Source of the DNA: a virus
Reading direction: 5' to 3' (one strand)
Virus genome (UHGV): UHGV-0228494
DNA length: 45,812 nt
Part shown: in pieces, positions 34,594-39,327 of the stretch
Position numbering within the stretch: the first letter of the stretch is position 1
Layout: the number at the start of each line of letters is the position of its first letter
Position numbers and translations under genes: made by a program
Notes under the pieces: generated by a model
The model's input: only the letters and a program-made list of their open reading frames with translations
The model's database searches: none
What the model was told of the DNA's origin: nothing

Positions 34594-34920
34594 TCATAAC
34601 ACCGTCGGACAACGCAAATCGTAAATCAGCACGGAAACAGAAAACGGCAGCTCCCCCTGAAGCAGTTCTTCCCGCTCCGCAAGATCCGGATTCCGGTACA
34701 GCATCCCGGTCAGTCGCATGGCAGCCCCCTTCATCCGGGTTAATGCCTCGCCCGGGATCAGTTCACCGTCCTCACGGATCACTTTATCCCGGCTGCCCTG
34801 AATGTAGGCCAGCAGCACGGCGGTAGCCTGACGAACCTTGTCCATCAGCATGTCATCATCCGCGTCATGGTCGACACGCAGATGTGCCTTGATCTCTTCC
34901 AGTGTCAGTAATGCCGTCAT
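34594..34920 (-). CDS. gp6-like head-tail connector protein
   Basis: 108 aa, MTALLTLEEIKAHLRVDHDADDDMLMDKV..., typical N-terminus of this family. Confidence 0.7.
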   Translation of the reverse strand: MTALLTLEEIKAHLRVDHDADDDMLMDKVRQATAVLLAYIQGSRDKVIREDGELIPGEALTRMKGAAMRLTGMLYRNPDLAEREELLQGELPFSVSVLIYDLRCPTVL

Positions 34921-37389: not shown

Positions 37390-39327
37390 TCAGCCGCCGG
37401 ACGCACTGCCGTAGTTCACTCCGGTGATCACCGCCACCGCCGCAGTACGGCGACGACGCCAGTTGATCCAGCGCTCCGCACGGATGGCCACGCTGCCTGT
37501 CTGGAACATGGAAACCAGCTCCACCGGGGACGGCGTGGTACTGTCGCCGGTCGGCTCAGACTGCATTTCCAGTGATGCCTCGCGGGACATATCCACTGCC
37601 ACGCCGCCGTCATCCGCCAGATAAATATCCGGGGCATTCACCAGCACCAGCTGGTCACCCACGTACTGGGAGACAATCACCGGCAGCCCCTGGAAGGAGC
37701 CACCCAGCAGGGTCATGTCCGGGTATTCCTTCTGACCCAGCGCATTTTTACGCATGGACAGTGCCAGGGCATTGGTGCTGGACATCAGCCAGACCGCACC
37801 GGTGGGCTGCAGGTTTGCTGCCACAAACTGTCCAAACGCAGCCTCTGCATCCGCATCCGGGTTACCGGTTGATGCCGTGCCCTTCACATCATGGGTGATG
37901 GACGCCGGGGAGACATCTGCCACTGCGGCTTTTTTCGGGTCCACAAAGTCTGTATCCAGACGCGCCACCACCGCTTCCGCCAGCGCATTACGGACCAGTG
38001 CATCAGCAGCCGGACTGGAAAAACGGATCAATTCTTCCGTCAGTACCGCAATGGCCGACACCTTCGCATGACTGAAGGTGATGGATTCAAAATCAAACTT
38101 CGTCAGGGGTTTTGCCTTACCCTCACCCACCCAGCCGGCAGCACCGCCGGACACCTGGGCGTGCACACGGATATTGAATGGCACCTGACGAAGTGCAGGG
38201 ATCCCGCCCTGACCAAATCGCCCGATAATGGTCTGCGGACGCAGGTAATCAATAAAGTCCTGTGCGTATTCCTGATATTCAGACAGGCTGCCTGCCCACT
38301 GCGGATCCGTGGTGGTCCCCGCGCCCACTGCCGATTTCAGGACATGATGCAGACGACTGTCATCCGGATACTGACGACGGGCCACTTCCAGGGCTTCAGA
38401 TCGGACGCCTTTAGCCGCAGCCAGCGATTTGGCAAAGCGGGCGAAGCCAATCCCCTTATCCAGTTTCTGCTCCACACGGATCACCGGCGCAGAAGCCACC
38501 GCGGCCACATTCCCGTTACCGGCCTGTTTCACCGGCTGCGCCGTGGCGGCCTTACCGGCTTCCAGTTCACGCAGGCGCTTCAGGTGCGCATCCACCTGAC
38601 GGATTTCCGCTGCGGTGTTGTCGTAATGCTCTTCCTCCTCCACATCCAGCGTGCGCCCTTCCTCTGCGGCTTTGGTCATGACCTCCTCAAGGGAGGCTGC
38701 CAGCGCTGCACGCTTGTTTTCAAAACTTTTAATCTGTTCGCCAATATTCATTATGGTCTTTTCCTTATGAAAAACGGTTGTTGACTGTGCCGCAGCGCCG
38801 GCAGAAGATGCGATTTTCACCACCGGTTTCCGGTTGCCGGACGCGGCAGAAAACGGGCGGTCGTAAGATTTAATGGTCCGGATGGTGCATTCCGCATTCG
38901 CGGGCACGGTGACGGCAGACACCTCCATCAGTTCCCAGCGCAGAAAATGCAGTCCGCCTCCGTCCAGAAAGGTGTATTCATGGGGACGGAAGCCCACGGA
39001 CAGCCCCCTGACCAGCCCGGTCTTAATGGCCGCCCAGACCTCATCCAGCCGGGCAGCCAGTTGCGACGGCATATCCGGTACGGGCTTCACCAGTGTTGCC
39101 GTGATTTCCAGCCCTTCGCTGACCCGGCGCACCGTACACTGCCCCACCGGGCGGGAATGGTCATGCTGCCAGAGAAACGGGATCGCACTGCCAAACTCCG
39201 CGCCCTCCGGCTCCAGGATGTCACCATCCCGATCCGGAGAAGGCGTTGACGCAATCCCGGTGATCACCCGTTCATCCTCACTGAAGGATTTCACCGTCAG
39301 CAGGGAACAGGCCCGTTTAAGAGTCAC
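37390..39327 (-). CDS. Fused prohead protease (HK97/U35 family) and HK97-fold major capsid protein
   Basis: 645 aa; N-terminal protease-like region incl. FLWQHDHSRPVGQ and ELMEVSAVTVPAN; coiled-coil linker; C-terminal capsid-like domain. Confidence 0.85.
   Translation of the reverse strand: MTLKRACSLLTVKSFSEDERVITGIASTPSPDRDGDILEPEGAEFGSAIPFLWQHDHSRPVGQCTVRRVSEGLEITATLVKPVPDMPSQLAARLDEVWAAIKTGLVRGLSVGFRPHEYTFLDGGGLHFLRWELMEVSAVTVPANAECTIRTIKSYDRPFSAASGNRKPVVKIASSAGAAAQSTTVFHKEKTIMNIGEQIKSFENKRAALAASLEEVMTKAAEEGRTLDVEEEEHYDNTAAEIRQVDAHLKRLRELEAGKAATAQPVKQAGNGNVAAVASAPVIRVEQKLDKGIGFARFAKSLAAAKGVRSEALEVARRQYPDDSRLHHVLKSAVGAGTTTDPQWAGSLSEYQEYAQDFIDYLRPQTIIGRFGQGGIPALRQVPFNIRVHAQVSGGAAGWVGEGKAKPLTKFDFESITFSHAKVSAIAVLTEELIRFSSPAADALVRNALAEAVVARLDTDFVDPKKAAVADVSPASITHDVKGTASTGNPDADAEAAFGQFVAANLQPTGAVWLMSSTNALALSMRKNALGQKEYPDMTLLGGSFQGLPVIVSQYVGDQLVLVNAPDIYLADDGGVAVDMSREASLEMQSEPTGDSTTPSPVELVSMFQTGSVAIRAERWINWRRRRTAAVAVITGVNYGSASGG

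What the first reader, a model, noticed from the sequence alone, without database searches (positions are those of the whole stretch)
34917..39327. Prophage B head module: fused protease-capsid gene placed before the portal
A single 645-aa ORF joins an HK97/U35-type prohead protease (FLWQHDHSRP, ELMEVSAVTVPAN) to a coiled-coil linker and an HK97-fold major capsid domain. The gene order is TerS-TerL-[protease/capsid]-small ORF-portal-connector, rather than the usual TerL-portal-protease-capsid.
Basis: partly seen in the sequence, partly recalled or inferred. Interest (0 to 1): 0.45.

Follow-up and report, generated by a model that had tools for sequence, protein, structure and literature searches.

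The report
Common prophage head module, protease-capsid fusion
The segment is the ordinary, long-annotated head-assembly gene set of a very common family of E. coli lambdoid prophages and Shiga-toxin phages, in which the capsid-maturation protease is fused to the capsid protein and sits ahead of the portal gene.

Summary
Window 37390-39327 (-) encodes a 645-aa polyprotein. It has an HK97-type S78 prohead protease (aa 48-152), a helical linker (about aa 193-262) and an HK97-family capsid domain (to aa 635).

This is the standard head module of a large prophage and phage family that includes Sakai Sp10, Stx2c phage 2851 and JLK-2012. It occurs in 1,258 of 5,426 complete E. coli genomes and has long been annotated 'major head protein/prohead protease'. 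The gene order is conserved in at least 14 gammaproteobacterial genera. Sp10, whose fusion protein is 644/645 identical, is experimentally transferable.

Two details were not in the finding:
- **Possible nested capsid product.** An in-frame Shine-Dalgarno plus ATG at Met193 is kept in all 16 fused genes although the linker residues vary. In a Haliea relative, protease and capsid are separate ATGA-overlapping genes. This suggests a second, capsid-only product.
- **The '753-aa portal' is two genes.** A portal (aa 1-454) and a 299-aa downstream gene are joined by one extra G in a G5 tract. The split form is ancestral, and both forms are common. The downstream protein has variable 54-aa repeats and a CBM5/12-like end; its function is unknown.

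The parts
41903..42268 (-). HNH endonuclease that precedes the terminase genes, as in HK97-like cos packaging modules
   Evidence: Pfam HNH E 2.7e-7; PHROG 589. Found at the same place in 15 of 17 loci from other genera.
41049..41612 (-). Terminase small subunit
   Evidence: Pfam Terminase_2; PHROG 641 E 8e-68
39391..41052 (-). Terminase large subunit
   Evidence: Pfam TerL_ATPase and TerL_nuclease; PHROG 9 and 7622
39339..39366 (-). Terminator-like GC hairpin plus T-run, between the TerL stop and the ribosome-binding site of the fusion gene
   Evidence: Found by the terminator scan. The same hairpin and T-run, with varied loops and stems, occur at this position in 14 genera. Function not tested.
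37390..39327 (-). 645-aa protease-linker-capsid polyprotein (ProMCP). It has a GTG start with AGGAGG 5 nt upstream.
38863..39327 (-). S78 (HK97 gp4-type) prohead serine protease domain, aa 1 to about 155. Candidate catalytic residues are His55 (FLWQHD) and Ser110 (GLSVGF).
   Evidence: Pfam PF04586, aa 48-152. His and Ser are invariant in 13 genera and in 20 homologues. Their catalytic role is inferred from the family.
38749..38766 (-). In-frame internal AAGGA (38766-38762) plus ATG (38751-38749, Met193). This is a candidate start for a 453-aa capsid-only product.
   Evidence: The Met is invariant and preceded by AGGA, AAGGA or GGAGG in 16 of 16 fused genes, against 15% of other in-frame ATGs. 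In Haliea the capsid gene starts at the equivalent Met as a separate ATGA-overlapping ORF. TIGR01554 position 3 aligns at aa 204.
38542..38751 (-). Helical, coiled-coil-like segment (aa 193-262), the equivalent of the delta/scaffold domain
   Evidence: AF2 predicts helices 195-222 and 229-262 at pLDDT about 72-76, the only confident part of the model. Weak Osmo_CC hit. PHROG 10 (major head protein) matches from aa 183.
37393..38460 (-). HK97-family major capsid domain, aa about 290-645
   Evidence: Pfam Phage_capsid, aa 386-635; TIGR01554 to aa 584; weak match to solved capsid protein 9d9w, E 0.0017
37356..37373 (-). GC-rich hairpin GGGAGGCG-TG-CGCCTCCC just after the capsid stop codon, with no T-run
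   Evidence: Read directly from the sequence; not tested.
37124..37345 (-). 73-aa ORF of unknown function. It overlaps the portal start by 55 nt.
   Evidence: PHROG 829 E 4e-39, no annotation. No Pfam or NCBIfam hit. Homologues at this position in 14 Enterobacterales-type loci.
35817..37178 (-). HK97-type portal protein proper, aa 1-454 of the 753-aa ORF
   Evidence: Pfam Phage_portal 54-382; TIGR01537; solved portals 9lbn and 8cez (424-431 aa) align to aa 43-420. Sp10 ECs_1974 is 454 aa.
35828..35833 (-). G6 homopolymer tract. The sixth G removes the portal stop (ancestral ...RGILRK*, ATGA overlap) and fuses the portal to the next gene.
   Evidence: Window G6 against Sp10, JLK-2012 and Stx2_EH2201 G5, on otherwise identical flanks. 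In an IMG/VR sample, 53 copies are G5 (split) and 25 are G6 (fused), on 4 shared haplotypes.
34917..35816 (-). 'ext', a 299-aa downstream gene (aa 455-753 of the ORF). It has a conserved N-terminal helix (MTERELSIIRALGEEF), helix-loop repeats and a C-terminal beta domain.
   Evidence: It is a stand-alone ORF with an ATGA overlap in every non-E. coli locus. AF2 pLDDT is 61.
35358..35594 (-). Repeat region of ext (aa 529-607), built of 27+27-aa units ([VQ]P.DG..). The copy number varies between prophages.
   Evidence: Repeat positions. Across loci ext is 245, 299, 353, 407, 461 or 569 aa long, in steps of 54 aa.
34944..35321 (-). C-terminal beta domain of ext, with CBM5/12-like motifs (GGLWRAYEKT, PGDTVTWGGSLWHC)
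   Evidence: Pfam CBM_5_12 at 19.5 bits, below the 26.2 cut-off, and up to 26.0 bits in Klebsiella homologues. The best Foldseek local matches are chitin-binding domains: 2d49, rmsd 1.4 A over 45 aa, E 0.06.
34594..34920 (-). Head-tail connector (gp6-like adaptor Ad1); ATGA overlap with the end of ext
   Evidence: Pfam Phage_connect_1; TIGR01560; PHROG 40
34234..34584 (-). Head closure protein Hc1
   Evidence: Pfam Phage_HCP E 2e-17; PHROG 25

Best explanation
This is the head-assembly core of a widespread HK97-like head module carried by lambdoid E. coli prophages and long-tailed Stx phages (the type of Sakai Sp10, phage 2851/Pankowvirus and JLK-2012/Marienburgvirus).

Shown here:
- One gene encodes an S78 prohead protease, a variable linker, a helical delta/scaffold-like segment and an HK97-family capsid domain.
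- The order HNH-TerS-TerL-ProMCP-(73 aa)-portal-ext-connector is fixed across at least 14 gammaproteobacterial genera.
- A virtually identical copy sits in an experimentally transferable prophage.

Inferred from the HK97, Gifsy-2 and actinophage precedents:
- The protease is attached to the inward-pointing N-terminus of the capsid subunit, so it is built into the procapsid automatically.
- It then removes itself and the helical segment, leaving the mature capsid domain.

Inferred from sequence conservation, probability about 0.55: a conserved internal Shine-Dalgarno plus ATG at Met193 also yields a protease-free 453-aa capsid precursor. This would make the gene nested, like lambda C/Nu3, and would set the protease-to-capsid ratio.

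The 753-aa 'portal' is the 454-aa portal joined to the next gene (ext) by a +1 G slip in a G5 tract. This is shown. Ext is probably a portal-associated virion protein, a positional analogue of SPP1 gp7/MuF. That reading is inferred, with probability about 0.35.
For: Domains.

Spread:
- 1,258 of 5,426 complete E. coli genomes carry the module, with a median of 3 copies.
- 95 phage records match, including Stx1a, Stx2c and Stx2a phages annotated 'major head protein/prohead proteinase'.
- The 90%-identity cluster of the fusion protein has 9,916 members. Homologues of 644-648 aa carrying both Pfam domains occur in Salmonella, Enterobacter, Klebsiella, Serratia, Pantoea and others.

Synteny: the same order is found in 17 loci from other genera.

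Function:
- Sp10 carries the module, with ProMCP 644/645 identical.
- Sp10 has all morphogenetic genes conserved, is packaged, and is transferred to K-12 (PMC2669165).

Nested start:
- Met193 is invariant and preceded by a Shine-Dalgarno-like motif in 16 of 16 fused genes, against 15% of other in-frame ATGs, while the linker residues vary.
- Haliea has separate protease and capsid ORFs with an ATGA overlap at the same Met.

Portal/ext:
- The portal C-terminus ...KAM[LIV]RG[LFI]L[TK]K* and the ATGA overlap are conserved in all other genera.
- G5 against G6 is the only difference from Sp10 at the junction.

Precedents: protease-scaffold-capsid fusions and portal-MuF fusions are documented in actinophages (PMC7302621). 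NCBI keeps a separate family called 'prohead protease/major capsid protein fusion protein'.
Against: - There is no independent structural confirmation. The AF2 model of the polyprotein failed (mean pLDDT 39.6), and sequence matches to solved capsid proteins are weak.
- TIGR01543 (proheadase_HK97) scores 46.5, below its equivalog cut-off of 59. The Pfam model does pass.
- I found no proteomic data for this module, so processing sites, the internal start and the location of ext are all untested.
- The Shine-Dalgarno/ATG could be a relic of the ancestral two-gene state. The 16 sequences are phylogenetically related, so the 16/16 count overstates independence.
- The only unfused case is a metagenome-assembled genome, where a frameshift error cannot be excluded.
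- The copy in this window belongs to a prophage whose tail-tip gene J is truncated, so this particular copy may never be expressed in a productive cycle.
Confidence: 0.85

Rival explanations
1. The 645-aa ORF is translated only as the full-length polyprotein, so every capsid subunit carries its own protease. On this reading the conserved internal Shine-Dalgarno/ATG is an evolutionary relic of the former capsid-gene start, or simply a conserved Met.
For: Small-genome actinophages and Gifsy-2 have comparable single-gene fusions, and the sources read here do not mention an internal start (PMC7302621; Gifsy-2 from my own knowledge). The upstream GTG has a strong AGGAGG site. A rough estimate from general knowledge, not computed here, suggests a T=7 procapsid interior could hold about 415 extra 20-kDa domains.
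Against: The linker residues vary (KG, KE, EG, KD) while the nucleotides AGGA and the ATG are kept in 16 of 16 genes, including Pseudomonas, Marinobacter, Morganella and Proteus. Only 15% of other in-frame ATGs have such a motif.
Confidence: 0.4
2. The fused portal-ext allele in this window is a mutational lesion. On this reading it is a homopolymer slip in a decaying prophage, neutral or harmful, rather than a functional variant.
For: - The split form with a conserved portal C-terminus is universal outside E. coli.
- The G tract is not conserved elsewhere, where the sequence is AGAGGA.
- The window's prophage has a truncated J gene.
- Its closest complete-genome relative has IS elements in lom and in the tail-fibre gene.
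- Some database records flag such portal genes as pseudogenes.
Against: - The fused allele is frequent: 25 of 78 IMG/VR copies, and about 38 of 60 sampled genomes have at least one.
- It occurs on 4 haplotype backgrounds.
- It is the allele of phage 2851 (an 859-aa portal). From my own memory of Strauch et al. 2008, which I could not read here, phage 2851 is an infectious, lysogenising phage. YYZ-2008 and Stx2a_WGPS6 also carry it.
Confidence: 0.4
3. The G tract is a programmed -1 ribosomal frameshift site, so split (G5) phages make both the portal and a portal-ext fusion, as with the tail chaperones G/GT.
For: In G5 alleles the -1 frame runs straight into ext, and the tract (A GGG GGA UA) is followed by a rare AUA codon. 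These prophages carry tRNA-Ile/Arg genes.
Against: The tract is absent in all other genera, which read ...CUC AGA GGA UUG..., although the portal, ext and the ATGA overlap are conserved there. No stimulatory structure was looked for or seen. The ATGA overlap already provides translational coupling.
Confidence: 0.05
4. The protease-capsid fusion is an artefact: an assembly or sequencing frameshift, or a pseudogene that merges two real genes.
For: One distant relative, a Haliea metagenome-assembled genome, has two genes.
Against: - The same 644-648-aa ORF is found in thousands of independent genomes from many genera and in all 16 other loci examined.
- It is identical in complete E. coli genomes.
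- It is present in the transferable prophage Sp10.
Confidence: 0.01

Closest known systems
Sakai prophage Sp10 (ECs_1970-1977), Stx2c phage 2851 (Pankowvirus), phage JLK-2012 (Marienburgvirus), BP-4795, YYZ-2008 and the PPompW prophages
   Same: This is the same module at 92-100% DNA identity, with the same genes in the same order. ProMCP is 644/645 identical to that of Sp10. It is annotated 'phage prohead protease' or 'major head protein/prohead proteinase'.
   Different: Only allelic details differ. The window has the G6 fused portal-ext allele, like phage 2851 and unlike Sp10. It has a 299-aa ext, against 407 aa in Sp10 and JLK-2012.
Phage HK97 head module (gp1-gp7: TerS, TerL, portal gp3, protease gp4, capsid gp5, gp6, gp7)
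   Same: The protein families are the same: HNH-associated terminase, TIGR01537 portal, S78 protease, TIGR01554 capsid protein with an N-terminal helical delta-type segment, a gp6-like connector and a head closure protein.
   Different: - In HK97 (my knowledge) the order is TerL-portal-protease-capsid, and protease and capsid are separate genes.
- Here protease and capsid are one ORF placed before the portal.
- Two extra genes are present, the 73-aa ORF and ext.
Gifsy-2 tripartite capsid gene (Effantin et al. 2010, Virology; cited from my own knowledge, the title is seen)
   Same: A single gene encodes protease, a central scaffold-like region and an HK97-fold capsid protein in an enterobacterial lambdoid phage.
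   Different: The Gifsy-2 protease is ClpP-type rather than S78. Its head module is otherwise lambda-like: the portal comes before the gene and a gpD-type decoration protein is present (my knowledge; not tested here).
Actinophage 'major capsid and protease fusion' or protease-scaffold-capsid fusion proteins (Microbacterium clusters EE and EL; Arthrobacter AN, AX, FE; Gordonia CW, DM)
   Same: Capsid maturation protease, scaffold and HK97-like capsid subunit are fused in one gene (PMC7302621; PMC9671004).
   Different: They are unrelated in sequence, and are described as a feature of unusually small genomes. Their gene order relative to the portal was not compared here.
Lambda C/Nu3 and herpesvirus UL26/UL26.5 nested protease-scaffold genes (my knowledge)
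   Same: An in-frame internal start inside a protease-containing gene gives a shorter, more abundant assembly protein with the same C-terminus. The conserved Shine-Dalgarno plus ATG at Met193 fits this pattern.
   Different: Here the shared C-terminal part would be the capsid protein itself, not only a scaffold. The internal product has not been shown.
Portal-adjacent minor head proteins (SPP1 gp7 / Mu gpF 'MuF') and portal-MuF fusions
   Same: The gene lies immediately after the portal and is recurrently fused to the portal C-terminus. Portal-MuF fusions are described in Microbacterium clusters EA and EB (PMC7302621).
   Different: Ext has no detectable MuF homology (no Pfam hit). It has variable 54-aa helix-loop repeats and a CBM5/12-like C-terminal domain instead.

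Membership tests
Peptidase S78 / HK97 gp4-type prohead protease | Match to the family profile above the curated threshold | tested here: met
   Pfam PF04586, 34.7 bits against 21, aa 48-152. The stricter TIGR01543 equivalog model gives 46.5 bits, below its 59 cut-off.
Peptidase S78 / HK97 gp4-type prohead protease | Conserved His and Ser of the catalytic site | tested here: met
   His55 (LWQH) and Ser110 (GLS[VI]GF) are invariant in 13 genera and in 20 homologues. Their assignment as catalytic residues rests on my knowledge of HK97 gp4.
Peptidase S78 / HK97 gp4-type prohead protease | Proteolytic processing of the capsid precursor | not testable with these tools
   Needs proteomics or mutagenesis.
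HK97-family major capsid protein | Match to the family profile above the curated threshold | tested here: met
   Pfam PF05065, 53.1 bits against 24.2; TIGR01554, 78.1 bits against 27.5
HK97-family major capsid protein | HK97 fold (A and P domains, E-loop) in a structure or confident model | tested here: inconclusive
   The AF2 model has a mean pLDDT of 39.6 and the capsid region is below 50. Only a weak match to solved capsid protein 9d9w, E 0.0017.
HK97-type portal protein | Family profile match and homology to solved HK97-type portals | tested here: met
   TIGR01537, 349.6 bits against 112. PF04860, E 5e-81. Solved portals 9lbn E 9e-29 and 8cez/8fql E 4e-20.
Protease-scaffold-capsid fusion proteins (as a kind) | Protease, helical scaffold-like segment and capsid domain in one uninterrupted ORF, conserved among relatives | tested here: met
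NCBIfam NF045541 'prohead protease/major capsid protein fusion protein' | Score above the family cut-off | tested here: not met
   54 bits against 525. This is a different fusion family, so the window protein is not a member.
Nested in-frame genes (lambda C/Nu3 type) | Conserved internal ribosome-binding site and start codon in frame | tested here: met
   16 of 16 genes, against 15% background
Nested in-frame genes (lambda C/Nu3 type) | A second, shorter protein product is made | not testable with these tools
   Needs N-terminal proteomics or initiation profiling.
CBM5/12 carbohydrate-binding module (C-terminus of ext) | Profile match above the gathering score, or a significant fold match | tested here: inconclusive
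   Pfam gives 19.5 bits here and at most 26.0 in homologues, against 26.2. Foldseek top local matches are chitin-binding domains with good local rmsd, but E is 0.05-0.1 on a pLDDT-61 model.
MuF / SPP1 gp7 minor head proteins | Sequence homology to Phage_Mu_F | tested here: not met
   No such Pfam hit for ext or 8 homologues even at E up to 1. Only the gene position and the portal fusions resemble this family.
Programmed -1 frameshift sites | Slippery sequence conserved among relatives that keep both reading frames | tested here: not met
   The G run is present only in E. coli-type copies and absent in 13 other genera.

The most novel reading that the evidence does not exclude
Two untested readings are combined here. 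First, ext would be an uncharacterised class of portal-associated virion protein: a conserved N-terminal anchor helix, a spacer of 1-7 54-aa helix-loop repeats, and a CBM5/12-like glycan- or peptidoglycan-binding end. The recurrent G5/G6 slip would then toggle it between free and portal-tethered forms as functional variants rather than as decay. Second, the protease-capsid gene would be a nested gene whose internal start sets the protease-to-capsid ratio.
Probability: 0.2. Interest if true: 0.45.

Novelty: already known. Interest (0 to 1): 0.25.

Why it matters
As framed, the finding adds nothing new. The fusion and its position are standard annotation for a module found in about a quarter of complete E. 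coli genomes and in Stx1 and Stx2c phages. A 2009 paper on the Sakai prophages already remarked that Sp6, Sp9, Sp10 and Sp12 have 'slightly different' head-region organisation.

Its practical value is for annotation:
- The portal gene of these prophages should be read as two genes, portal and ext. Records currently call ext 'portal protein', 'gp6-like connector' or a pseudogene.
- Split copies should not be scored as defective.

If the nested start and a virion role for ext were confirmed, this would become a tractable E. coli model, in medically relevant Stx phages, for two questions. One is how protease dose is set in a polyprotein capsid gene. The other is what a length-variable portal-associated protein does.

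Tried and rejected
- **AF2 of the 645-aa polyprotein.** I used a 20-sequence alignment in which all sequences are at least 73% identical. The model was unusable (mean pLDDT 39.6), so no fold search was run on it.
- **AF2 of ext.** The model was only moderate (pLDDT 61). Its Foldseek PDB search gave no significant hit.
- **Sequence searches of solved structures.** These were weak for the capsid part and empty for ext, even with a profile.
- **Tandem Repeats Finder.** It did not report the ext repeats at DNA level in this window, which has only about two diverged units. They were found at protein level instead.
- **Papers not held.** Liu & Mushegian 2004 on prohead-protease gene displacement and Strauch et al. 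2008 on phage 2851 are not in the library. What I say about them is from memory.
- **Virion proteomics.** A 2025 EHEC-phage paper that includes a Pankowvirus gives protein maps only for its podoviruses.
- **Programmed-frameshift reading of the G tract.** Considered and rejected, because the tract is not conserved outside E. coli.
- **'Ext fused to the gp6-like connector in Klebsiella'.** NCBI names suggested this. The 402-aa proteins have the same architecture and no connector domain, so I rejected it.
- **Counting fused against split copies from annotation.** PGAP product names did not work for this. Alignment-length differences were used instead.
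Full report
**Observation.**
- HNH endonuclease, 41903-42268
- TerS, 41049-41612
- TerL, 39391-41052
- a 645-aa ORF, 37390-39327
- a 73-aa ORF, 37124-37345
- a 753-aa ORF, 34917-37178
- a gp6-like connector, 34594-34920
- a head-closure gene, 34234-34584

The 645-aa protein passes the curated thresholds of Pfam Peptidase_S78 (aa 48-152) and Phage_capsid (aa 386-635). It also passes TIGR01554 major_cap_HK97 (aa 204-584). It matches PHROG 617 over its full length with E 1e-261. The quoted motifs lie at aa 51, 108 and 135.

The 753-aa protein matches Pfam Phage_portal (E 5e-81) and TIGR01537, and it matches the solved HK97 portal.

**What the module is.**
- The 7-kb stretch from TerS to the connector is found at 90-100% identity in 1,258 of 5,426 complete E. 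coli genomes, with a median of three copies per genome.
- It is also in 95 phage records. These include Stx1a, Stx2c and Stx2a phages, the PPompW prophages, JLK-2012 and Lys8385Vzw, where the gene is annotated 'putative major head protein/prohead proteinase' or 'phage prohead protease'.
- The 90%-identity protein cluster has 9,916 members. Homologues of 644-648 aa with both Pfam domains occur in Salmonella, Enterobacter, Klebsiella, Serratia, Kosakonia, Pantoea and others.

A scan of one genome per species returned 22 loci. In the 17 with enough flanking DNA, the order is always HNH-TerS-TerL-[protease-capsid]-(73 aa)-portal-ext-connector. These loci come from Pantoea, Atlantibacter, Enterobacter, Kosakonia, Kluyvera, Phytobacter, Buttiauxella, Citrobacter, Entomohabitans, Pseudomonas, Morganella, Marinobacter, Haliea and Proteus. 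The unusual order is thus a fixed, old feature of a module, not a local rearrangement.

The Sakai prophage Sp10 carries the module (ECs_1970-1977), and its fusion protein is 644/645 identical to the window's. Asadulghani et al. 2009 (PMC2669165) report the following:
- Sp10 has all morphogenetic genes conserved.
- Sp10 is packaged and is transferred to K-12, where it lysogenises.

The module with the fused gene is therefore functional.

**How the fusion gene most likely works.** The protease sits at the N-terminus. A variable linker (aa about 155-192) follows it. Next comes a helical segment (aa 193-262), which is the only confidently predicted part of an otherwise failed AF2 model. The capsid domain comes last.

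In HK97 (my knowledge) the N-terminal delta domain of the capsid protein points into the procapsid, and the protease is recruited there. A covalent N-terminal protease would be packaged automatically and could then remove itself and the helical segment. That mechanism is inferred. It has documented parallels in the actinophage protease-scaffold-capsid fusions (PMC7302621) and in the Gifsy-2 tripartite gene (my knowledge). NCBIfam also holds a distinct 'prohead protease/major capsid protein fusion protein' family, of which this protein is not a member (54 bits against 525).

One detail was not in the finding. Met193 (ATG 38751-38749) is invariant in all 16 fused genes. It is preceded at 6-11 nt by AGGA, AAGGA or GGAGG, although the encoded linker residues differ (KG, KE, EG, KD). 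Only 15% of the other 231 in-frame ATGs in these genes have such a motif. In the Haliea locus the protease and capsid are separate ORFs overlapping by ATGA exactly at this Met.

I read this as a retained internal start that also gives a 453-aa protease-free capsid precursor, making this a nested gene like lambda C/Nu3. I put the probability at about 0.55. The alternative is a relic of the ancestral two-gene state.

**The '753-aa portal' is two genes.** In JLK-2012, Stx2_EH2201 and Sp10, the portal is 450-454 aa and ends ...AMFRGILRK*. A second gene starts at an overlapping ATGA and begins MTERELSIIRALGEEF. The window differs from Sp10 at this junction by a single base, G6 instead of G5 at 35833-35828, which joins the two frames.

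In all other genera the two genes are separate. The ATGA overlap and a conserved portal C-terminus (...KAM[LIV]RG[LFI]L[TK]K*) are kept, and there is no G run. So the split state is ancestral, and a programmed frameshift is not supported.

The fused state is nevertheless common:
- 25 of 78 IMG/VR copies are fused, on four flanking haplotypes that each also occur in the split state. This indicates recurrent slippage or recombination.
- Judged by alignment length, about 38 of 60 evenly sampled E. coli genomes have at least one fused copy. This sample is biased towards the query allele.
- Phage 2851, YYZ-2008 and Stx2a_WGPS6 carry the fused allele.

Whether the fused protein works is open. From my memory of a paper I could not read here, phage 2851 is an infectious, lysogenising phage.

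**The downstream protein (ext).** It exists as a stand-alone protein of 245, 299, 353, 407, 461 or 569 aa, in steps of one 54-aa unit. It has three parts:
- a highly conserved N-terminal helix
- repeats of the form [I/L]P.P.DG.., each followed by a helix
- a strongly conserved C-terminal beta domain

AF2 gives a moderate model with pLDDT 61. Pfam CBM_5_12 scores just under threshold. The best Foldseek local matches are chitin-binding domains and phage fibre parts, none of them significant. No solved homologue exists.

Three features resemble portal-bound minor head proteins such as SPP1 gp7/MuF, for which portal fusions are documented:
- its fixed place between portal and connector
- translational coupling to the portal
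- recurrent fusion to the portal C-terminus, which lies inside the capsid in HK97-type portals (my knowledge)

There is no sequence homology to MuF, however, so this is a statement about function and not about family membership. An external neck or head fibre remains possible for the split form.

**Context.** Window 1-23641 is 100% identical to a lambda-type prophage of E. coli strain 4/1-1. That prophage has the canonical order TerL-W-portal-S49 protease-D-capsid. Window 23642-45812 is 99.95% identical to the ompW-integrated prophage of strain IPCEC48. The two prophages meet head-on inside their J genes, both of which are truncated. No complete genome in the collection spans that joint.

**Verdict.** The finding is real and correctly interpreted, but it describes a well-populated, long-annotated and experimentally functional module. 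Its novelty rating is 'already known' and I score interest at 0.25. The nested-start signal and the G-tract portal-ext fusion are modest, testable additions.

Noticed in passing
window 23453-23984 (joint at 23641/23642): Two prophages meet head-on inside their tail-tip J genes. A + strand J fragment (21455-23647, 730 aa) faces a - strand J fragment (23493-25976, 827 aa), and both lack the C-terminal receptor-binding part. The left side is 100% identical to strain 4/1-1 and the right side 99.95% identical to IPCEC48. None of 5,426 complete genomes spans the joint, and it is not at homologous positions. It could be an illegitimate rearrangement, a misassembly or a composite window.
   Followed up: partly
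window 39339-39366 (- strand): A canonical intrinsic-terminator-like hairpin (GAACCGC-TCCG-GCGGTTT plus a T-run) lies between the TerL stop and the ribosome-binding site of the fusion gene. The same element, with varied loops and stems, is at this position in 14 genera. Its role inside a late operon is unknown; it could be insulation, mRNA end protection or processing.
   Followed up: partly
window 37356-37373 (- strand): A strong GC hairpin (GGGAGGCG-TG-CGCCTCCC) without a T-run lies directly after the capsid gene stop. It is possibly an mRNA-stabilising 3' structure that favours capsid expression over the downstream genes.
   Followed up: no
window 37124-37345 (- strand): A 73-aa ORF lies between the capsid and portal genes and overlaps the portal start by 55 nt. 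It matches PHROG 829 (unknown function) and is conserved at this position in Enterobacterales-type loci. phmmer did not detect it in the Pseudomonas, Morganella, Marinobacter, Haliea or Proteus loci.
   Followed up: partly
window 34917-35816; loci L028-L107: The ext gene behaves like a variable-number tandem repeat locus. Across E. coli prophages it has 1 to 7 copies of a 162-bp (54-aa) unit, giving proteins of 245-569 aa. Many database entries for it are contig-end fragments, which suggests the repeats break short-read assemblies.
   Followed up: partly
database annotation of ext homologues: Stand-alone ext proteins are variously named 'phage portal protein', 'phage gp6-like head-tail connector protein', 'Carbohydrate binding domain' or pseudogene. 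The 402-aa Klebsiella proteins called gp6-like connector contain no connector domain.
   Followed up: yes
window 1-23641 (+ strand): Prophage A is a lambda-type late region. In the identical region of strain 4/1-1 it is annotated Q, lysis genes, iss, Nu1/A-type terminase, W, portal, S49 peptidase, D-type decoration protein, capsid, FI, and tail genes to J. This provides a canonical-order contrast to prophage B within the same window.
   Followed up: partly
window 31973-32700 and 32667-33383 (- strand): This is the usual pair of tail assembly chaperone ORFs (a chaperone plus DUF4035, in the G/GT-type arrangement). The major tail protein's C-terminal part looks immunoglobulin-like, and its JLK-2012 and phage 2851 homologues are annotated 'immunoglobulin domain-containing protein'.
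   Followed up: no
locus L026 (Haliea MAG) 4145-6174: This is the only relative in which protease and capsid are separate ORFs. They overlap by ATGA at the Met equivalent to window Met193, which fits the ancestral two-gene state. Because the source is a metagenome assembly, a frameshift error cannot be excluded.
   Followed up: partly
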